From positions 16,822-80,821 of the forward strand of contig JAYTSY010000011.1 of NCBI GenBank assembly GCA_043745355.1: 64,000 nucleotides of DNA, written 5' to 3'. The position numbers were made by a program, and so were the translations under genes. The stretch's first letter is position 1, and every line of letters starts with the position of its first letter. The notes below the pieces were generated by a model. The model ran no database searches, was not told where the DNA came from, and was given only the letters and a program-made list of their open reading frames with translations. Of the stretch, positions 20,797 through 28,210 are shown in pieces. The stretch comes from a bacterium. Lineage in GTDB: Bacteria > Patescibacteriota > Minisyncoccia > Phycocordibacterales > CAIZLB01.

Positions 20797-21489
20797 TCAT
20801 TCCTCCAGCTGATCCAAGACCCCCTGAAAAGCAGGATCCGTTGACGCAACCCTGAGAGCAACCCTCAGTGCATGCACGCCTTTGGAGGATAGGCGTTGAA
20901 GCAACCTCTTGCTAATCACCACCTCAAGAGGTGTGTAGAAGATTTCATTGATTCGCTTATGAGTCCGGCGATGATTCAAACTTCCCACGTACCCTTTCAC
21001 AAGGACCACACGAGTATCATCCTCGTCGATGACTGACCGATCCACCAATTCAGCCAACGACATTACCGCCCCGAGCTGTGCATTTACTTTGGCCACAGCA
21101 TGTGTCTGGGCATTTACATCCTCGCTATCGTTGATTTGACTTGGGAAGTAAATTTTTGGCTCATCTTTGCCCATACCGTACGGGACAAACACCACCACAC
21201 TAAATTTTTCCTTCGTCTTCAACAGCCGACGACTGAGAATGACAAAGATGCGATTATGGAAAGGATGTTTCTCAACCACCGCTTCTTGCGAGACTTCATC
21301 CGCCACTTTCGAGACAGGTGCCGTAACCTTCCTGTGTCTCTTTTTGTAATAGCTACTTTCATGACGATGCTTCTCATGCGAAACATGAGGAGCACCTGGC
21401 TCGACCACTGGGTCTGAAGGGACAAGAACAGCTGTGCGTGTACGCGACATTGGAAATAATTCTAAACGCTCAACCAGAGCATGTGCCAT
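20797..21489 (-). CDS. Hypothetical protein (possibly YceD/DUF177-like by position upstream of rpmF)
   Basis: Conserved yceD-rpmF synteny only; no Cys motifs seen. Confidence 0.35.
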   Translation of the reverse strand: MAHALVERLELFPMSRTRTAVLVPSDPVVEPGAPHVSHEKHRHESSYYKKRHRKVTAPVSKVADEVSQEAVVEKHPFHNRIFVILSRRLLKTKEKFSVVVFVPYGMGKDEPKIYFPSQINDSEDVNAQTHAVAKVNAQLGAVMSLAELVDRSVIDEDDTRVVLVKGYVGSLNHRRTHKRINEIFYTPLEVVISKRLLQRLSSKGVHALRVALRVASTDPAFQGVLDQLEE

Positions 21490-21557: not shown

Positions 21558-22196
21558 TCACTTATCTTTTGGTGCAAGAACTTGGGGGTCTGACCCCAAA
21601 TACGTTTTTCGGTGAACTTCACTTATTCCATGTTTTTTTATTGCTTGCATATGCAATTGCGTGCCATATCCTTTGTGTCTTTCAAAACCATATTGTGGAT
21701 ATTTTCTTGCCATCCGAATCATCAATCGATCACGTTCAACTTTTGCATATATAGAAGCAAATGAAATGATTGGTTCCTTATCATCTCCACCAATAATCGT
21801 TTCTTGATGAATATACTCAGCAGGTACTTTCAAACTACCATCGAGGAGTATCAACACTTCTTCGGGTTTTACGTTCAACTTTTTTAAATTTTTTTGAATT
21901 AAACTTCTGATGCAAACGGCAATTCCTTTTTTATCTATTTCTTTTGCGGAGGCGTAACTTAACTGAAAAGTAATATTATCTTTCAAAACTTCATACCACA
22001 CTTCCCTTCCTTTTTCTGTTAAACGTTTTGAATCACGCAGTTTTGGCAAATCCTTAAATTTATTTACACTTTTTGACTTTAAACGGACATTATCAAATCT
22101 AACCATTGCAGCGCAAACTGCGACAGGACCAGCAACGGGACCACGGCCGACTTCGTCGATGCCGATGAGGTGTTTAAAAGTTTTATATTTTTTCAT
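21558..22196 (-). CDS. rnhB: Ribonuclease HII
   Basis: GIDEVGRGPVAGPVAVCAAMV and RDSKRLTEKGR motifs. The ATG overlaps the RT stop by 14 nt. The 3' end contains a GGGGGTCTGACCCC copy (21584-21597). Confidence 0.85.
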   Translation of the reverse strand: MKKYKTFKHLIGIDEVGRGPVAGPVAVCAAMVRFDNVRLKSKSVNKFKDLPKLRDSKRLTEKGREVWYEVLKDNITFQLSYASAKEIDKKGIAVCIRSLIQKNLKKLNVKPEEVLILLDGSLKVPAEYIHQETIIGGDDKEPIISFASIYAKVERDRLMIRMARKYPQYGFERHKGYGTQLHMQAIKKHGISEVHRKTYLGSDPQVLAPKDK

Positions 22197-23193
22197 TATT
22201 TATATTATAAATCAGATGGATCTTCTTTCTTATTCTATATGTATTTCCATGGCTGATTAAGCCAATGTAAGACTGAATGGTTTCCTTACTCTGGTTTACT
22301 TTAAGCCTTGAAAACATTCTTCTTTTGGTTGCAGTCCTCAATATCTTACAATGAGGAAAATGTACCCAGCCCAAGAAGTCTACTCCTGAAGCATAGGTTT
22401 TTATAAACACTTTATCAGGGTGTAACTCAAGTTTCAGTTTATTACTCAGGAACGCATCGATATTTAAAAGTATTAAATCAAGACTTTTTCTATCACTATC
22501 CATAAACACAAAATCATCGGCATAGCGTATATAAAACTTTGATTTAATGATGTGCTTGACGAACTGGTCAAATTCATTCATGTAGATGTTTACCAATAAT
22601 TGCGATGTGAGATTACCAAGCGGTAATCCTTTGCCATGTTCAGTAGTATGAAAGCTATCTATTATCTGCATAAGTAACCATGTGATATTTTTATCTGGTA
22701 TGTATTTACTTAATATTTCAATAAGAATTTTATGGTCAATTGAAGCAAAAAACTTCTTAATATCACACTTTAGGATCCATACTGTACATGTATTATTTTT
22801 ACTCACCTTGCGAGCATATATATCAAAACTTTTTATAGCCTCATGTGTCCCCTTACCTATTCTGCATGAATACGAATCGTAAATAAATCTCTTATCAAAA
22901 TAGGGGTACAATTTTCTATATAAAGCATGATGCAGTAACCTATCCCTCACCTTCGCTTTATGGATGTTTCTCGGCTTTGGGTCTGAAATATTAAATGCTT
23001 CGTAAACTGAATGTATATATGTTTTATCAGCCAAATCATTGTGAAGCGAGATTATGTTAGACATCAGATTCCTCTCAAATTCTTGAACATCTTTTCGGCT
23101 TTTCTTGCCCAAGACGAACCCATTCCATGCTTCAAGCAGGTTTTCTAAAGAGATGATATGCTCGTATGTACTATCAAATTTAGTGACTGACAT
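22183..23193 (-). CDS. Diversity-generating retroelement reverse transcriptase
   Basis: RT motifs WILKCDIKKFFASIDH, GLPLGNLTSQLL (DGR-specific GxxxSQ), YIRYADDFVFM and GVDFLGW; 336 aa with no maturase or endonuclease domain; adjacent TR/VR pair. Confidence 0.85.
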   Translation of the reverse strand: MSVTKFDSTYEHIISLENLLEAWNGFVLGKKSRKDVQEFERNLMSNIISLHNDLADKTYIHSVYEAFNISDPKPRNIHKAKVRDRLLHHALYRKLYPYFDKRFIYDSYSCRIGKGTHEAIKSFDIYARKVSKNNTCTVWILKCDIKKFFASIDHKILIEILSKYIPDKNITWLLMQIIDSFHTTEHGKGLPLGNLTSQLLVNIYMNEFDQFVKHIIKSKFYIRYADDFVFMDSDRKSLDLILLNIDAFLSNKLKLELHPDKVFIKTYASGVDFLGWVHFPHCKILRTATKRRMFSRLKVNQSKETIQSYIGLISHGNTYRIRKKIHLIYNINNEKI

Positions 23194-23206
23194 ATCATGA
23201 AATCTA

Positions 23207-23216
23207 CCCCCCCCCC
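23207..23216. repeat. C10 homopolymer (G10 on minus strand) in the 31-bp gap between the RT and avd start codons
   Basis: cccccccccc at 23207-23216; RT ATG at 23193 (minus strand), avd TTG at 23225 (plus strand). Confidence 0.9.
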
Positions 23217-23224
23217 GAGAATTT

Positions 23225-23593
23225 TTGCAACAACCTAAACTACTCCCTCTATTACAGAAAGTAAAAACTGTATATATCTTGTGGTACGGCTATTATCAGA
23301 CACTGCCGAAGCTACACAGACACTCACTTGGACAACGAATTGACTCCCTTTTTATAGAAACAATGGAAGCAATCAGTGTGGCGAGTTTTTTACAAAAAGA
23401 AGAAAAATTGCCGTGGGTAAAAGTGGCCATACGAAAGATTGACACTGTAAAACTATTACTTATGGTACTTTGGGAGACTAAATCACTCGATGAAAAGAAA
23501 TACATCTTGCTATCTCTTCAACTAGAAGAGATCGGGAAAATGCTTGGTGGTTGGAATGGTCAGATTTCAAAACAAAACTCCCCCGCCATATAG
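23225..23593 (+). CDS. avd: Avd-like accessory variability determinant (four-helix-bundle / 23S rRNA IVS protein family)
   Basis: C-terminal LQLEEIGKMLGGW resembles the family's EIGKMLNGL motif; helix-rich 122 aa; TTG start; opposite strand to the RT and target. Confidence 0.6.
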   Translation: MQQPKLLPLLQKVKTVYILWYGYYQTLPKLHRHSLGQRIDSLFIETMEAISVASFLQKEEKLPWVKVAIRKIDTVKLLLMVLWETKSLDEKKYILLSLQLEEIGKMLGGWNGQISKQNSPAI

Positions 23594-23614
23594 GCAGAGG
23601 AGAGATGAAGAGAT

Positions 23615-23743
23615 TTGCGACGGAAGATCCAGAGGTTGTCAGGATTCCACTGATTGTCGGGGTTGGCATAATTGGCGTTGAGCCACATGCCATTCGAGTC
23701 GTGTTCGAGGTTGAACACGTTTGGATTACGGTCGGAGTCGATT
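23615..23743 (-). repeat. DGR template repeat (TR), 129 bp
   Basis: Aligns with 24121-24249 with 20 mismatches, all at plus-strand T (template A). Translation of the TR is Asn-rich (NPNVFNLEHDSNGMWLNANYANPDNQWNPDNLW). Confidence 0.85.
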
Positions 23744-23980
23744 GTGCATTGTCCCATCTTTTCCACCACCACTTGATTACTCTCGTGGTTGTATTTTATT
23801 CGTGATCTATAATCACAGAGGACTATGCACCAAGTATCTTCATTTTTTGAAGTGTCTACATACACCACTCTACCCTAAACCTTGGTCGAGAATATTCTGG
23901 ATGTATGGATACTGGATTCGGTAGGAAGAAACCGTGATCTCTCCCGTATTCACCTACTACCGTTTTTAACTTTATCATAA

Positions 23981-24014
23981 ATACAAAAATCCCGAACACG
24001 TATTGTGTTCGGGG
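23981..24014 (-). terminator. Hairpin cccgaacac-gtatt-gtgttcggg plus T-run downstream of the DGR target gene and VR
   Basis: 9-bp stem followed by a T-run on the minus strand. Confidence 0.5.
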
Positions 24015-24104
24015 GCAGGTTTAGAGATGTACCTTGCTTTAACTTACTTTTGGCGCCGAAGGGCAAAGTTCAAAGGGTCAGAGTAGACCACAGTGGACAA
24101 GTCC

Positions 24105-24788
24105 TTAGGGCTTAGTGATCTTGCGACGGAAGATCCAGAGGCGGTCAGGATCCCACTGAAGGCCGGGGTAGGCACAATTGGCGCGGAGCCACATGCCAAG
24201 CGAGTCGTGTCCGAGGCGGAACACGTCCGGATCACGGTCGGAGTCGATGATTGGCTTCATGCCGACACGAATCCATTCGTCCAAAGGTTGGTCGTTGTAG
24301 GCGAGCCTCAGGTAGAATGCGTCGCTCGGTTTGCACAGCTCAAGCCCATGCTGTGCCAAGAACTCTTCGTTGAGGAAGACTTGTGTCTCCGTGTTCTCAT
24401 CTAACCCGAACAGATCGTGGAGGCTTCCCTTCACGAACTCCACCCCCTCTTCTTTCTCGGTCGGGAACGTGCATTCGGGCTTGCCTGCGATGTCGAGGGC
24501 CCAGTCGCTGGCTTTCATGCCCGTCTTTGTTCCGTCTTTGACCTTGTAGGTCGCCTCCTTGAACTTGGAGAGAAGCTGTTCTTTGGTGTCTCCACCGACG
24601 ATCAGCATCATCCAGAGCTTGAGGGCGGCCTCCTTGATCAATTGAATGAGGGTTTGAGGTTGCATCCGAAGTGCGAGCTTGACTGCTTCCAGCCAGCTTG
24701 CACCGTTTTTGCCCGACAGTTTGTCGAGCAGGACTTTCATCGGTCCAGCCACATCGGCAAGAGCGATATCCGAGCATATATTACTCAT
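24105..24788 (-). CDS. DGR target protein with C-terminal variable region
   Basis: 227 aa; C-terminus IIDSDRDPDVFRLGHDSLGMWLRANCAYPGLQWDPDRLWIFRRK is the VR-encoded counterpart of the TR; the VR ends 16 nt before the stop. Confidence 0.8.
   Translation of the reverse strand: MSNICSDIALADVAGPMKVLLDKLSGKNGASWLEAVKLALRMQPQTLIQLIKEAALKLWMMLIVGGDTKEQLLSKFKEATYKVKDGTKTGMKASDWALDIAGKPECTFPTEKEEGVEFVKGSLHDLFGLDENTETQVFLNEEFLAQHGLELCKPSDAFYLRLAYNDQPLDEWIRVGMKPIIDSDRDPDVFRLGHDSLGMWLRANCAYPGLQWDPDRLWIFRRKITKP
24121..24249 (-). repeat. DGR variable repeat (VR) at the 3' end of the target gene
   Basis: See TR; the changes are adenine-specific. Confidence 0.85.
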
Positions 24789-24994
24789 GGTCAGTTTGTC
24801 TTTCTTGGTTTCTAACGTTTTGAATGCTGTATTGGTTTGGCCAAAGGTTTCACCACAGCAGAGAAAATCCTTAAAGATCCTCTATGCTGAGGTGAAATCG
24901 CATTTTTTCAAAGTCCTAAACTATTCGTAGTATATCACTTTTGATACAAAAAGTCAATATCCTTAACTTTCCATAAAAAACATATAATGAATCA

Positions 24995-27900
24995 ATGAGC
25001 TCACGCTTCGTCCACCTCCACACACACTCTCATTATAGCTTGCTCCAGGCCCTTCCTAAAATCAAAGCCCTCGTCAAAGCCGCCGTTGACCGTGGCATGC
25101 CCGCGCTCGCACTCACCGACGCTGGCAATATGTATGGTGCTATCGAATTCTACAAGGAATGTCAGAAGCAAGGTATCAAACCAATACTCGGTGTAGATTT
25201 TTACGTTGCTGCTCGTACCCGCAGGGACAAAGAACCCCGCATTGACAACAGACGTTCGCGTCTCGTTGTTTTAGCAAAAAATATTGCCGGGTACAAAAAC
25301 CTTATCAAACTTGTCACCGATTCCCAACTCGAAGGTTTCTACTACAAGCCACGTATCGACAAAGAACTGATTGAAAAATACCACGAAGGACTTGTAGTCA
25401 TTAGTCCGTCATTTAGCGGAGAGTTGATGCAATCAATTAAAGCTTCAAATACTGAAAACGCCAAAACGATCGCAGATTGGTACAAAAATATATTCGGTGA
25501 TGACTTCTACATGGAGATCACACATCATCCAGAACTCGACGGTCATGAAGCAAATATGAAAAAGCTAATCGACTTTGCTAAGACAGAAAACATTCCCCTT
25601 GTCGCAGCGCATGATACCTATTATCTGAACCGTGAGGATAAAGCCGCGAGAGAAACACTTGTCTCCATTCAGGACCAGTTTAGCGAGCGAAATACTGATG
25701 ACGAAGCAGACTTTTCTTTCATTACTCCCAATGAAGCTGAAGAATTTTTCAAAGACATTCCTGAATCACTCGACAATTGCCAGAAAATTGCTGAGAAGTG
25801 CAACCTCGAACTCGAACTCGGTAAATGGCTCTTCCCGGACTTCATTGTTGAGAGTGGTAAGAGCGCCGACGACGAATTGCATGATCTTGCATATGCAGGG
25901 CTTGAACGTCGGCGCGTGGAACTCACACCCGATGTCAAAGAACGCCTCGACTATGAACTCCAAGTTATCAAAACAAAAGGTTACTCACCCTACTTCCTCA
26001 CCGTAGCCGACCTCCTCGCTTATGCTCACAAGCACGGCATTCTCACCAACATTCGAGGGTCCGTCGCGGGTTCCATGACCACATATCTCACAGGTATTAC
26101 CAATGTAAACCCTCTTGAATACAAATTACCGTTCGAACGATTTTTAAATCCTGAGCGACCTTCAGCGCCGGACATCGATATGGATTTTGCGGACAACAGG
26201 CGCGATGAAATGATCGAATATTCTCGTCAGAAATATGGTCGTGACAAAGTAGCACAAATCGGAACATTCGGAACCATGATGGCGAGAGGTGCAGTGCGTG
26301 ACGTTGCACGTGCGATGAAATTCCCCTATACGCTGGGAGACAGGATTGCCAAACTCATTCCCATGGGTCAACAAGGTTTTGCAATGACCATCGATCGAGC
26401 ACTCGACATGACACCTGAGCTGAAAGACATGTATGAAAAAGAAGCGGATGTGAAATCAGTGATTGATATGGCTAAAAAAATCGAAGGATGTGCTCGGCAT
26501 ATTTCCGTGCACGCTGCGGGTGTTGTCATCTCCCCCATTCCACTCACCGATATCGTTCCCCTTCAGCTTGATCCAAAAAGTAATGGTGAAGACGGCTCGA
26601 CACGTATCATCACCCAGTACGATATGCGATCTGTTGATGAAAATAATGCCGGACTGCTCAAATTCGATTTTCTTGGAATTAAAAACCTCTCACAACTTGC
26701 AGATGCAGTCTCGCTCGCTGAAATAATTGAAGGTGTCAAAGTAGATCTCGAAAATATTCCGATCGATGACAAGAGGACATACGAAATGCTCGCTCGCGGT
26801 GAGACCGAAGGCCTTTTCCAATTGAACGGAAGTGGCATGACTCGCTATCTCAAGGAGCTCAAACCAAGTTCAATTCATGACATCAATGCTATGGTTGCTC
26901 TCTATCGTCCAGGCCCAATGGAAACTATTCCTGAATATATTAAACGAAAAAACGATCCGTCGCTCATAAAATACGAAGATCCTCGTATGGAAAAATTCCT
27001 CAAAGAATCATATGGCCTCATTGTGTACCAAGACGATCTCCTCTTCTGTGCTATCGACCTCGCTGGATATTCATGGCTCGAGGCTGATAAATTCCGAAAA
27101 GCGGTAGGTAAAAAGATTCGCGAAGAAATGGCGGCGCAAAAAGAGAAACTAACAAAAGGCATTGTTGCAAACGGCCAAACAAAAAAGTTTGCGGAACATC
27201 TCTGGAAACTCTTCGAGCCGTTTCAGGCGTATGGGTTTAATAAGGCCCACGCGGCAAGTTACGGACGTCTCGCCTATCAAACTGCATACATGAAAGCCAA
27301 TTTCCCTGCTATTTATATGGCAGCGGTTTTGACAGGAGCGCACGGTGATGTAGAAGAAATCTCAATCTATATCAATGAATGTAAGCGCATGAAAATCCCC
27401 GTCCTCCCTCCAAACATCAATGAATCATTCGGAAATTTCACCGTCATAAAAGGCGGCGGTATGGATGCGAGTGGCAACCCAATCCCTGACAAGATCCGAT
27501 TCGGACTTTTCAGTATCAAAAACTTTGGTGAAGGCATTGGCAACACGATTATCGAGGAGCGAAAAAAGAACGGCAAATATAAATCTCTCGAGGATTTTCT
27601 GAACCGTATCAAAGACAAAAATCTCAATAAGAAATCACTCGAGGCACTCGTCAAAGCCGGAGCAATGGATGAGTTTGCAGATCGAGGTGTCATGCTTGCG
27701 AACCTCCCTGATATTCTTGAATACAATAAAGAACAACACAAACAAAGTGAAAATCAGGACTCCCTCTTCGGACTTGGCGGTACAGGTGAGAGTCACTTGC
27801 GACTTGTGGCCGAGGGTAAAGCCACACAGAGTGAGAAACTCGCCTGGGAAAAAGAATTGCTCGGACTTTATATTACAGGGCATCCGCTCGATAAGTACAA

Positions 27901-28210
27901 AGAAATACTTGAAAAACGAGATATCAATATTGAGAAAATAAAAGAAGAAGCTAAAGATGAAAAAGTATACATTCTTGCTGGCATCATTGAAGAAGCAAAG
28001 GAGATCATTACAAAAAAGGACTCAAAACGTATGATGTTTCTGCGTATTGCTGACCTCTCAGGATCAGTTGAGGCCGTGGTGTTTCCTAAAACTTATGAAC
28101 TTTATAAAGACGTACTCGTGCCTGAAAAATGCATTGTCGTTAAGTGTAAATTCTCAGACAGAAATGGTAGTCCGAGTTTGTTGATTGAGACGGTGAAGGC
28201 ACTAGCTTGA
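24995..28210 (+). CDS. dnaE: DNA polymerase III alpha subunit
   Basis: PHP domain HLHTHSHYSLLQA; 1071 aa; TATAAT at 24983-24988 lies only 6 nt before the ATG. Confidence 0.95.
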   Translation: MSSRFVHLHTHSHYSLLQALPKIKALVKAAVDRGMPALALTDAGNMYGAIEFYKECQKQGIKPILGVDFYVAARTRRDKEPRIDNRRSRLVVLAKNIAGYKNLIKLVTDSQLEGFYYKPRIDKELIEKYHEGLVVISPSFSGELMQSIKASNTENAKTIADWYKNIFGDDFYMEITHHPELDGHEANMKKLIDFAKTENIPLVAAHDTYYLNREDKAARETLVSIQDQFSERNTDDEADFSFITPNEAEEFFKDIPESLDNCQKIAEKCNLELELGKWLFPDFIVESGKSADDELHDLAYAGLERRRVELTPDVKERLDYELQVIKTKGYSPYFLTVADLLAYAHKHGILTNIRGSVAGSMTTYLTGITNVNPLEYKLPFERFLNPERPSAPDIDMDFADNRRDEMIEYSRQKYGRDKVAQIGTFGTMMARGAVRDVARAMKFPYTLGDRIAKLIPMGQQGFAMTIDRALDMTPELKDMYEKEADVKSVIDMAKKIEGCARHISVHAAGVVISPIPLTDIVPLQLDPKSNGEDGSTRIITQYDMRSVDENNAGLLKFDFLGIKNLSQLADAVSLAEIIEGVKVDLENIPIDDKRTYEMLARGETEGLFQLNGSGMTRYLKELKPSSIHDINAMVALYRPGPMETIPEYIKRKNDPSLIKYEDPRMEKFLKESYGLIVYQDDLLFCAIDLAGYSWLEADKFRKAVGKKIREEMAAQKEKLTKGIVANGQTKKFAEHLWKLFEPFQAYGFNKAHAASYGRLAYQTAYMKANFPAIYMAAVLTGAHGDVEEISIYINECKRMKIPVLPPNINESFGNFTVIKGGGMDASGNPIPDKIRFGLFSIKNFGEGIGNTIIEERKKNGKYKSLEDFLNRIKDKNLNKKSLEALVKAGAMDEFADRGVMLANLPDILEYNKEQHKQSENQDSLFGLGGTGESHLRLVAEGKATQSEKLAWEKELLGLYITGHPLDKYKEILEKRDINIEKIKEEAKDEKVYILAGIIEEAKEIITKKDSKRMMFLRIADLSGSVEAVVFPKTYELYKDVLVPEKCIVVKCKFSDRNGSPSLLIETVKALA

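What the first reader, a model, noticed from the sequence alone, without database searches (positions are those of the whole stretch)
22183..24790. Complete diversity-generating retroelement: RT (GxxxSQ), Avd, a 129-bp TR/VR pair with 20 of 20 adenine-specific substitutions, and target gene
TR (23615-23743) and VR (24121-24249) align over 129 bp. Every one of the 20 mismatches sits at a plus-strand T of the TR, which is a template A on the coding minus strand. They change Asn-rich TR codons into D/R/G/L/C/P in the C-terminus of the 227-aa target protein. The adjacent 336-aa RT carries the DGR hallmark LGNLTSQ in place of the usual SP. An Avd-like four-helix-bundle gene lies between the TR and RT but on the opposite strand, which is non-canonical. 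The cassette sits between dnaE and rnhB in an otherwise housekeeping neighbourhood. DGRs are a known class, but this instance fits a minimal CPR-like genome with a small cytoplasmic-looking target that has no signal peptide.
Basis: seen in the sequence. Interest (0 to 1): 0.85.

Follow-up and report, generated by a model that had tools for sequence, protein, structure and literature searches.

The report
Ordinary CPR-type diversity-generating retroelement
This is a complete, probably recently active diversity-generating retroelement of the stereotyped kind already known to be common in Patescibacteria (CPR); it is ordinary, although its relatives show a conserved structured RNA in front of the template and a poly-G tract in front of the reverse transcriptase that deserve follow-up.

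Summary
All 19 sit at template adenines on the coding (minus) strand (P about 7e-13). The 336-aa RT carries LGNLTSQ and its best solved relative is the Bordetella phage DGR RT. The 122-aa protein on the opposite strand is an Avd. The VR ends the 227-aa target gene.

The features called unusual are the norm for this clade. TR-(avd)-RT is Wu et al.'s architecture B3, which accounts for 90% of CPR DGRs. Avd was reversed in 69 of 69 relatives here. CPR targets without a signal peptide or known domain were already reported by Roux et al. The target's fold search returns C-type-lectin-fold proteins, but weakly.

Near-identical sister cassettes differ almost only at VR positions templated by A, so the lineage is active.

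Three things are worth more than the DGR itself:
- A roughly 220-nt structured RNA abuts the TR 5' end, with strong covariation, in 56 of 58 assessable relatives.
- A leader-to-post-TR duplex is followed by a stem-loop.
- A G10 tract upstream of the RT is present in 61 of 68 relatives and varies in length between near-identical elements.

Verdict: new member of a known kind.

The parts
22219..24920 (.). Extent of the cassette shared with relatives (about 2.7 kb)
   Evidence: About 81% DNA identity to L001, L002, L003 and L011 over exactly this span. Identity drops to about 35% outside it.
22183..23193 (-). DGR reverse transcriptase, 336 aa, with LGNLTSQ (residues 192-198) and YADD
   Evidence: Pfam RVT_1, E 2e-24. 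The best PDB sequence hit is 8ub7 (328-aa reverse transcriptase, which I recognise as the Bordetella phage bRT) at E 3.6e-36 and 128 bits, against 73 bits for the best group II RT. More than 8000 homologues were found, and the named ones are all Patescibacteria.
23207..23216 (.). Homopolymeric tract: C10 on the plus strand, G10 on the RT strand, in the 31-nt gap between the divergent RT and avd start codons
   Evidence: It is the only G/C run of 8 or more in the window. A G run of 6-12 lies upstream of the RT in 61 of 68 relatives, against a background of 0.073 runs per kb. Its length differs by one between near-identical elements. Here it is followed by TAGATT and, 7 nt later, the RT ATG.
23225..23593 (+). 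avd (accessory variability determinant), 122 aa, TTG start, convergent with the TR
   Evidence: NCBIfam NF033474 DivGenRetAVD, E 4.1e-16, 59.2 bits (cut-off 80), profile positions 1-102 of 104. Pfam bAvd, E 1.5e-9, 38.7 bits (cut-off 40). Avd is on the opposite strand in 69 of 69 relatives.
23578..23602 (-). 10-bp stem-loop just 3' of the TR, followed by TTTTGTTTTG. It overlaps the avd stop codon and looks like a terminator.
   Evidence: Found by the terminator scan. Three pairs show compensatory changes in the six-sequence alignment. An equivalent hairpin is present in the relatives. Its position matches the 'Avd-binding stem-loop just downstream of TR' predicted in 207 of 278 DGRs by Handa et al..
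23605..23611 (-). Post-TR strand (TCTTCAT) of a long-range duplex with the leader motif ATGAAGA (23837-23843)
   Evidence: The duplex has 7-10 of 10 pairs in 36 elements, with compensatory variants in L035, L053, L067, L085, L054, L061, L066 and L082.
23615..23743 (-). Template repeat (TR), 129 nt, 37 A, 10 AAY codons
   Evidence: It is 95% identical to the relatives' TRs, while the coding parts are 77-79% identical.
23744..23961 (-). Conserved structured leader of the TR RNA. P1 is 23914-23961. P2 is 23859-23907. The almost invariant single-stranded motif CAAAAAATGAAGATACTTGG is 23830-23849. The P3 domain is 23744-23830 and abuts the TR.
   Evidence: 90% identical to the relatives. nhmmer gives E 3e-66 in the window and finds it in 56 of 80 RT-relative loci. 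46 of 56 predicted pairs show compensatory change. 96.6% of cells are paired against 80.5% in shuffles, and 408 double-change cells are seen against 103 +/- 12. The P3 domain gives a sub-threshold match to Rfam RT-16 (34.1 bits, gathering score 50).
23969..23977 (-). Extended -10-like element TGaTAAAGT, the putative promoter of the TR RNA
   Evidence: T13, A14 and T18 are invariant and the TG is mostly conserved in the 40-sequence alignment, whose consensus is TGnTAnAAT. The consensus promoter scan did not call it. Function is inferred.
23991..24013 (-). Terminator-like hairpin ending the target-gene transcript
   Evidence: In relatives with solo target genes, homology to the window stops at about 24025, near this hairpin.
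24121..24249 (-). Variable repeat (VR), which encodes residues about 180-222 of the target
   Evidence: The family alignment is variable exactly at the TR-Asn positions.
24105..24788 (-). Target gene, 227 aa, with no signal peptide or TM segment. The fold search returns C-type-lectin-fold proteins for roughly the C-terminal half.

Best explanation
This is a complete diversity-generating retroelement of the stereotyped Patescibacteria (CPR) type, with the gene order target(VR) - terminator - leader RNA - TR - (avd, reversed) - RT.

Proposed mechanism:
1. A discrete non-coding RNA of about 400 nt is transcribed on the minus strand, from a conserved extended -10 element (about 23977-23969) to a stem-loop and U-tract just past the TR (about 23570).
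2. The RNA consists of a structured leader of about 220 nt, the 129-nt TR, a short segment that pairs back to an almost invariant leader motif, and a stem-loop.
3. The RT and Avd bind this RNA and reverse-transcribe the TR, misincorporating opposite adenines.
4. The cDNA replaces the VR at the 3' end of the target gene. This recodes up to 10 Asn (AAY) codons and other A-containing codons in the target's C-terminal domain, whose nearest structural matches are C-type-lectin-fold proteins. The protein looks soluble.

Shown here: the parts, the adenine-only TR/VR differences, VR-only variation between near-identical sister cassettes, the conservation and covariation of the RNA, and the invariant architecture across relatives.

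Inferred from Bordetella phage biochemistry: formation of an RT-Avd-RNA particle, cis-primed cDNA synthesis, and retrohoming.

Unknown: the ligand and cellular location of the target.
For: TR and VR differ at 19 positions, all of them template adenines (P = 6.9e-13), and at no other base, which argues against long decay.

The RT is nearest to the Bordetella phage bRT among solved structures (128 bits against 73 for group II). It has the signature [I/V/L]GxxxSQ and the Arg equivalent to bRT R74. Both bRT I181 and R74 promote adenine mutagenesis (PMC7826257).

Avd matches two independent Avd models over its full length.

Sister cassettes are about 81% identical to this one. Among themselves, L001 and L005 differ at 21 positions over 2.76 kb: 19 in the VR, one G-tract indel and one substitution. 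Across this group, 19 of the 20 variable VR columns correspond to a TR adenine.

In 40 related loci with a repeat of at least 90 nt, the TR lies directly after the leader, with an A-biased VR 420-680 nt upstream.

The RNA structure is strongly supported by covariation.

The target's closest structural matches are C-type-lectin-fold proteins, including the DGR variable proteins TvpA and Mtd.
Against: There are no read-level data for this genome, so current activity is not shown. The target protein is known from a single contig.

Both Avd scores fall just under the curated cut-offs (59.2 against 80, and 38.7 against 40).

The promoter, the RNA ends and the priming site are inferred. The stem-loop with its U-tract could be an Avd-binding element, a terminator, or both.

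Host taxonomy rests only on the names attached to relatives of the cassette genes.
Confidence: 0.9

Rival explanations
1. It is a DGR relic. The cassette is structurally intact but no longer mobilises TR information, and the VR differences are fossils of past activity.
For: Some relatives carry solo target genes without TR, avd or RT but with diversified VRs (L012, L013, L014). L004 has a TR, but its avd/RT region shows no homology to this cassette. Loss of the machinery therefore happens in this family. No population data exist for this genome.
Against: All three ORFs are intact and the catalytic YADD and LGNLTSQ motifs are present. There are no non-adenine TR/VR differences over 129 nt. The leader RNA matches the family model at E 3e-66. 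Sister cassettes show fresh VR-only variation.
Confidence: 0.08
2. The RT belongs to a group II intron or a retron, and the 129-nt repeat is an unrelated partial gene duplication.
For: The best NCBIfam hit is the group II RT/maturase model (143.8 bits). Some sources label homologues 'retron-type' or 'maturase'.
Against: That score is far below the model's cut-off of 300. The protein is only 336 aa. Rfam finds no group II intron or retron RNA in the window. The nearest solved relative is the DGR RT. The motif is SQ, not SP. An adenine-only mismatch pattern has P = 6.9e-13 by chance and recurs in 40 relatives.
Confidence: 0.01
3. The cassette is carried on a phage or other mobile element and diversifies a receptor-binding protein of that element, not a cellular protein.
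For: In L001, L002, L005 and L007 the cassette lies next to a large serine recombinase. Depending on the locus, GIY-YIG nuclease, DNA methyltransferase and defence-type genes (GmrSD, SIR2, DUF87) are also nearby.
Against: In this window it is flanked by rnhB, dnaE, rpmF, nusB and rnc, with no recombinase or phage structural gene. In L008 it lies between a tRNA synthetase gene and tsaD. The best phage RT hit is below 40% identity. Roux et al. place Patescibacteria DGRs in an almost entirely cellular clade.
Confidence: 0.03

Closest known systems
CPR/Patescibacteria DGRs: architecture B3 of Wu et al. 2018 (PMC5758913) and clade 2 of Roux et al. 2021 (PMC8144416)
   Same: The order is TR-(avd)-RT with avd on the opposite strand and a single upstream target with a C-terminal VR. 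The target is small and has no TM segment, signal peptide or known domain. The RT is 60-70% identical to hundreds of Patescibacteria RTs.
   Different: Nothing essential differs. This exact target subfamily is small (16 clusters at 52% identity or more), but it belongs to a superfamily of at least 2030 cluster representatives.
Bordetella phage BPP-1 DGR (mtd-avd-TR-brt), the biochemically and structurally characterised prototype
   Same: Both have an RT with [I/V/L]GxxxSQ and the R74 equivalent, an Avd, adenine-specific TR-to-VR differences, and a VR at the 3' end of the target. Both have a stem-loop just 3' of the TR and a duplex between sequences upstream and downstream of the TR.
   Different: [quoted passage not shown] The bulk of the conserved RNA structure (about 220 nt) lies 5' of the TR instead of 3'. 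The upstream/downstream duplex comes before the stem-loop, not after it. The upstream strand is about 90 nt from the TR, not adjacent to it. The element is cellular, not phage-borne. The target is a 227-aa soluble-looking protein, not a tail-fibre tip.
DGR variable proteins with a C-type lectin fold (TvpA 2y3c, Mtd 1yu0) and the FGE/EgtB-type CLec domains
Rfam RF03019 RT-16 RNA and the other RT-1 to RT-19 motifs (Weinberg et al. 2017, PMC5737381)
   Same: RT-16 is a candidate structured RNA found next to RT genes. Its model aligns to the P3 domain of the leader (23746-23829) with an outer helix, a conserved AUAAAAUACA stretch and an inner hairpin. The authors showed that RT-10 is the BPP-1 spacer and speculated that other RT motifs belong to DGRs.
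   Different: The score is 34.1 bits against a gathering score of 50. No RT-16 hit reaches the gathering score in 20 related loci. RT-16 (158 positions) does not cover P1, P2 or the invariant single-stranded motif.

Membership tests
Diversity-generating retroelement (DGR) | Reverse transcriptase of the DGR lineage with the signature [I/V/L]GxxxSQ in place of QGxxxSP | tested here: met
   LGNLTSQ is at residues 192-198 and aligns with bRT IGSLTSQ. bRT is the best solved relative (E 3.6e-36). The motif is invariant in 12 CPR RTs. The motif definition comes from PMC7826257.
Diversity-generating retroelement (DGR) | A TR/VR near-repeat whose differences are confined to adenines of the TR | tested here: met
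   19 of 19 mismatches are at TR A (37 A among 129 nt), P = 6.9e-13.
Diversity-generating retroelement (DGR) | The VR lies at the 3' end of a protein-coding target gene, and the TR adenines are concentrated at codon positions 1 and 2 (AAY codons) | tested here: met
   The VR ends 14 nt before the stop codon. 17 of 19 changes are at codon positions 1 or 2. There are 10 AAY codons and 9 are changed.
Diversity-generating retroelement (DGR) | Accessory protein Avd (present in most DGRs, not all) | tested here: met
   NF033474 gives E 4.1e-16 over profile positions 1-102 of 104. Pfam bAvd gives E 1.5e-9. Both bit scores are just under the curated cut-offs (59.2 against 80, and 38.7 against 40). phmmer with this protein finds an Avd next to the RT in 69 relatives.
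Diversity-generating retroelement (DGR) | An IMH element at the 3' end of the VR, an IMH* in the TR, and a GC-rich inverted repeat downstream of the VR | tested here: inconclusive
   The last 21 nt of the TR and VR are identical (23615-23635 and 24121-24141), and the flanks diverge immediately beyond. No sequence definition of IMH exists for this clade. The nearest strong hairpin after the VR is the terminator-like one about 110 nt downstream. Wu et al. found such repeats in only 34% of DGRs.
Diversity-generating retroelement (DGR) | Ongoing diversification: VR heterogeneity at A-templated positions within populations | not testable with these tools
   No reads are available for this genome. 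As a proxy, near-identical sister cassettes from different samples differ almost only in the VR, and 19 of 20 variable VR columns correspond to a TR adenine.
Diversity-generating retroelement (DGR) | The variable region is displayed on a C-type lectin (or Ig) fold | tested here: inconclusive
DGR architecture B3 (Wu et al. 2018) / Patescibacteria DGR clade 2 (Roux et al. 2021) | Core order TR-(avd)-RT with avd on the reverse strand | tested here: met
   On the minus strand the order is the TR (23743 to 23615), then avd on the plus strand (23225-23593), then the RT (23193 to 22183). 69 of 69 relatives share it.
DGR architecture B3 (Wu et al. 2018) / Patescibacteria DGR clade 2 (Roux et al. 2021) | The RT falls in the Patescibacteria-restricted clade | tested here: inconclusive
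   Every named close homologue is from Patescibacteria. No tree with the Roux reference RTs was built, and the host genome was not classified.
Group II intron | An RT with maturase/X domain at the family's score, plus intron RNA domains | tested here: not met
   TIGR04416 scores 143.8 bits against a cut-off of 300. Rfam finds no intron RNA in the window. The protein is 336 aa.
Retron | A retron RT plus an adjacent msr/msd RNA | tested here: not met
   NF038233 scores 60.4 bits against a cut-off of 235. There is no retron RNA family hit.
Rfam RF03019 (RT-16 RNA) | A score at or above the gathering threshold of 50 bits | tested here: not met
   The score is 34.1 bits, E 0.002, covering model positions 39-150 of 158. 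None of 20 related loci reaches the gathering score.

The most novel reading that the evidence does not exclude
Two features of this DGR clade may be undescribed in the papers I could search.

(1) The DGR RNA may be 'permuted' relative to the Bordetella paradigm. A covariation-supported scaffold of about 220 nt (P1, P2, an invariant motif that pairs with the sequence just 3' of the TR, and a P3 domain abutting the TR) lies 5' of the template. The 3' side is reduced to one stem-loop ending in a U-tract.

(2) A conserved G9-11 homopolymer sits immediately upstream of the RT. In this subgroup it is directly followed by a -10-like hexamer placed 7 nt before the ATG. It may be a slipped-strand switch that turns RT expression, and with it hypermutation, on and off, which would be a phase-variable mutator.
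Probability: 0.3. Interest if true: 0.6.

Novelty: new member of a known kind. Interest (0 to 1): 0.33.

Why it matters
As a DGR it adds one more instance to a clade with thousands of members, so it matters little by itself.

The comparative work it prompted gives two testable handles on how CPR DGRs work, about which nothing is known experimentally:
- A well-defined RNA of about 400 nt, with base pairs supported by covariation, could be used to reconstitute a CPR RT-Avd-RNA particle. It could also be used to ask whether the Bordetella priming and stop mechanisms are conserved when the scaffold lies on the other side of the template.
- A homopolymeric tract at the RT start could couple hypermutation to phase variation.

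The confident model of the target, and a superfamily of about 2000 clusters with no Pfam model, also bear on an open question raised by Roux et al.: whether CPR DGR targets are truly not membrane-bound.

Tried and rejected
- The Rfam gathering scan of the window and of 20 related loci found no curated family at the DGR. It found only tRNAs and one LOOT RNA in L022.
- The first AF2 model, from 16 sequences, had pLDDT 65.9 and was replaced by a 79-sequence model.
- Foldseek against the PDB gave nothing significant. The afdb50 library was not available.
- Pfam on all 79 aligned family members gave no family.
- The genome-contig scan with the target family returned one locus only, identical to L008.
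- I tested whether adjacency to rnhB (the RT stop overlaps the rnhB start by 14 nt) or to dnaE is a conserved functional link. No homologue of either is within 4 kb in 80 relatives, so I rejected the idea.
- A search for further VR copies of the TR in the window found none.
- The consensus promoter scan is no better than shuffles and did not call the TR-RNA promoter. I could not identify a convincing -35 for the putative RT promoter. The -10-like hexamer after the G tract is clear only in a subgroup.
- The long-range helices from the six-sequence RNAalifold were not all kept. Only the leader/post-TR duplex survived inspection in 36 elements.
- Paul et al. 2017 and the 2026 'Minerva' preprint are not held, so I could not check whether they describe the leader or the G tract.
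- A phage origin was considered and rejected.


Full report
**Observation.**
- On the minus strand there is a 227-aa ORF (24788 to 24105), then a non-coding stretch, then a 336-aa ORF (23193 to 22183).
- A 122-aa ORF lies between them on the plus strand (23225-23593).
- rnhB (21558-22196, minus) and dnaE (24995-28210, plus) flank the set.

The repeat finder and a direct alignment give one ungapped repeat, 23615-23743 against 24121-24249. I count 19 mismatches, not 20 (18 if the boundary base is dropped). Every one is a plus-strand T in the copy at 23615-23743, which is an A on the coding strand. That copy has 37 A among 129 positions, so the chance that all 19 fall on A is 6.9e-13.

Seventeen of the 19 are at codon positions 1 or 2. 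Nine of the ten AAY codons are changed. The twelve amino-acid changes are N to D, R, L or Y, E to G, Y to C and D to G. No other copy of the TR exists in the window.

**The proteins.**
- *RT.* It hits Pfam RVT_1. Among solved structures its best relative is 8ub7, a 328-aa reverse transcriptase that I recognise as the Bordetella phage bRT (E 3.6e-36, 128 bits). The best group II intron RT scores 73 bits and retron RTs score lower still. LGNLTSQ aligns with bRT IGSLTSQ, and the Arg of PKPR aligns with bRT R74. Handa et al. showed that R74 and I181, the first residue of the signature [I/V/L]GxxxSQ, promote adenine mutagenesis (PMC7826257).
- *NCBIfam and the RT.* NCBIfam returned no DGR RT family for this protein. 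Its top hit is the group II RT/maturase model at 143.8 bits, far below that model's cut-off of 300. Rfam finds no intron or retron RNA in the window.
- *Avd.* The 122-aa protein matches NCBIfam DivGenRetAVD (E 4.1e-16, full length) and Pfam bAvd (E 1.5e-9). Both scores are just below the curated cut-offs.

The element therefore meets the defining features of a DGR.

**Is it unusual?** It is not.
- Wu et al. 2018 define architecture B3 as TR-(avd)-RT, with parentheses meaning the reverse strand. [quoted passage not shown]
- The RT has more than 8000 homologues, hundreds of them 60-70% identical, and every named one is from Patescibacteria.
- I fetched 80 metagenomic loci encoding such RTs. Avd was found in 69 of them and is always on the strand opposite the RT.
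- In 40 loci a TR of about 100-147 nt lies between the leader and avd, with an adenine-biased VR 420-680 nt upstream on the RT strand.
- Roux et al. 2021 place Patescibacteria DGRs in a nearly purely cellular clade. They note that these targets, unlike most cellular targets, typically have no recognisable transmembrane or other conserved domain (PMC8144416).

**The target.**
- It has no Pfam, NCBIfam or PDB sequence match.
- Word-based search finds only 16 clusters, the named ones from Patescibacteria. Their alignment is conserved in the N-terminal 180 residues and variable exactly where the TR has Asn codons.
- A profile search of 1.84 billion cluster representatives finds 2030 relatives (559 at E of 1e-10 or better), mostly about 200 aa long. 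None of the 79 I aligned hits Pfam.
- The family HMM, mainly its C-terminal half, hits the target in 13 of 40 related DGR loci.
- With the 79-sequence alignment, AlphaFold gives pLDDT 93.9.
- A crude hydropathy scan finds no transmembrane-like segment in 78 of 79 members, this protein included.

**Activity and mobility.**
- About 2.7 kb (24920 to 22219) is about 81% identical in DNA to cassettes in L001, L002, L003 and L011. Identity collapses at both ends.
- In L001, L002, L005 and L007 the cassette lies next to a large serine recombinase. GIY-YIG, methyltransferase or defence-type genes are also nearby, depending on the locus. In L008 it lies between a tRNA synthetase gene and tsaD.
- L012 has the target alone at what looks like the same kind of position as the full cassette in L008, beside tsaD. 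L013 and L014 also carry solo targets. Homology to the window in L012 and L014 stops at about 24025, near the target gene's terminator hairpin.
- Within the sister lineage, L001 and L005 differ at 21 positions over 2.76 kb: 19 in the VR, one G-tract indel and one substitution. Across the group, 19 of 20 variable VR columns correspond to a TR adenine.

The lineage was therefore diversifying when sampled. For the window's own copy, the only evidence is the clean adenine-only pattern and the intact parts.

**The RNA (beyond the finding).** The 241 nt between the target's terminator hairpin (24013-23991) and the TR are 90% identical to the relatives. The coding parts are 77-79% identical.
- An nhmmer model of this leader finds it in 56 of the 80 RT-relative loci. 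That is all but two of those with enough upstream DNA. It is always on the RT strand and ends where the TR begins.
- In a 40-sequence alignment, RNAalifold predicts 56 pairs, 46 of them with compensatory changes.
- 96.6% of cells are paired, against 80.5% in shuffles. There are 408 double-change cells against 103 +/- 12 in shuffles, and at most 79 when the partners are slid.
- In window coordinates the elements are an extended -10-like TGaTAAAGT (23977-23969), P1 (23961-23914), P2 (23907-23859), an almost invariant single-stranded motif CAAAAAATGAAGATACTTGG (23849-23830), and a P3 domain (23830-23744) abutting the TR.
- Three nucleotides after the TR, TCTTCAT (23611-23605) can pair with the leader's ATGAAGA. 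The duplex is present in 36 elements, with compensatory variants in at least eight.
- A 10-bp stem-loop followed by TTTTGTTTTG comes next (23602-23578) and overlaps the stop codon of the convergent avd.

*What was already known.* Handa et al. (bioRxiv 10.1101/2023.10.23.563531) predicted, in 207 of 278 DGRs from taxa including CPR, a stem-loop just downstream of the TR and a duplex between sequences upstream and downstream of the TR. These two elements are therefore anticipated.

*What may be new.* I could not find a description of the large 5' scaffold. Its P3 domain gives only a sub-threshold match to Rfam RT-16 (34.1 bits against a gathering score of 50). RT-16 is one of the RT-associated motifs that Weinberg et al. 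speculated might belong to DGRs. No relative reaches the gathering score. Compared with BPP-1, the scaffold appears to lie on the other side of the template. This fits with avd occupying the place of the spacer.

**The G tract (beyond the finding).** The 31-nt gap between the divergent RT and avd start codons holds C10 on the plus strand (23207-23216). It is the only G/C run of 8 or more in the window.
- A G run of 6-12 (mode 10) lies upstream of the RT in 61 of 68 relatives. The background is 0.073 runs per kb.
- In the window and at least 15 relatives, the run is followed by a -10-like hexamer (TAGATT here) and the RT ATG 7 nt later.
- Its length differs by one between near-identical pairs: L001 against L005, and L047 against L048. 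In the second pair it is one of only two real differences in 4.1 kb.
- This suggests slipped-strand variation of an RT promoter spacer. Homopolymer lengths are error-prone in assemblies, however, and I could not define a -35.

**Composition.** Target body GC is higher than flank GC, which is higher than RT and avd GC. This holds here (0.54, about 0.43 and 0.34) and in 33 of 33 relatives (means 0.557, 0.45 and 0.40). VR GC exceeds TR GC, as A-to-N mutagenesis predicts. The high GC of the whole target body is unexplained.

**Verdict.** This is a correct call of a DGR, overrated for novelty. It is a new member of the well-described Patescibacteria DGR type. The leader RNA and the G tract are the parts worth pursuing.

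Noticed in passing
window 23744-23986 (minus strand); also L016-L095: A conserved, structured leader RNA of about 220 nt lies directly 5' of the TR, preceded by a conserved extended -10-like element. It is present in 56 of 58 assessable CPR DGR loci and has very strong covariation (46 of 56 pairs compensatory). It gives only a sub-threshold match to Rfam RT-16.
   Followed up: yes
window 23578-23611 and 23837-23843 (minus strand): The sequence just 3' of the TR (TCTTCAT) pairs with an almost invariant leader motif (ATGAAGA), with compensatory variants in several relatives. A 10-bp stem-loop plus U-tract follows and overlaps the stop codon of the convergent avd. These are probably the counterparts of the upstream/downstream duplex and Avd-binding stem-loop of Handa et al., but in a different order.
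   Followed up: partly
window 23207-23216; 61 of 68 related loci: A G10 (C10 on plus) homopolymer sits between the divergent RT and avd start codons. It is conserved across the clade (length 6-12, mode 10) and is 1 nt longer or shorter between near-identical elements. In this subgroup it abuts a -10-like hexamer placed 7 nt before the RT ATG. It may be a phase-variable control of the RT.
   Followed up: partly
window 22183-24788; L016-L085: GC content is layered: target body (0.54 here, mean 0.557) > host flanks (about 0.45) > avd and RT (0.34-0.38 here, means 0.42 and 0.40). The target body exceeds the RT in 33 of 33 relatives. The high GC of the whole target gene, not just the VR, is unexplained.
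   Followed up: partly
L012, L013, L014; L004: Solo target genes with diversified VRs occur without TR, avd or RT. In L012 and L014, homology to the window ends near the target's terminator hairpin (about window 24025). L012 lies beside tsaD, as the full cassette in L008 does. L004 keeps a shortened target (202 aa) and a TR, but its avd/RT region is not homologous.
   Followed up: partly
L001, L002, L005, L007, L011: In sister genomes the same 2.7-kb cassette lies next to a large serine recombinase (L001, L002, L005, L007). Nearby, depending on the locus, are GIY-YIG nuclease, HTH and N6/N4 methyltransferase genes (also in L011), or GmrSD, SIR2 and DUF87 genes. This suggests carriage on integrative or defence islands. 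How the bare cassette reached the rnhB-dnaE gap here is unknown.
   Followed up: no
window 22183-22196: The RT stop codon (22183-22185) lies inside the first 14 nt of rnhB (start codon at 22194-22196), so the RT and RNase HII are co-oriented and overlapping. No rnhB homologue is near the RT in 80 relatives, so this looks incidental.
   Followed up: yes
window 20797-21489 (minus strand): A 230-aa ORF with no Pfam hit and raised GC (about 0.50) lies immediately upstream of what looks like rpmF (L32). By position it could be a divergent YceD/DUF177-like gene. I did not examine it.
   Followed up: no
L022 5018-5153: A LOOT RNA (RF03000, 69.5 bits) lies about 1.7 kb downstream of the RT gene in one related locus.
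   Followed up: no
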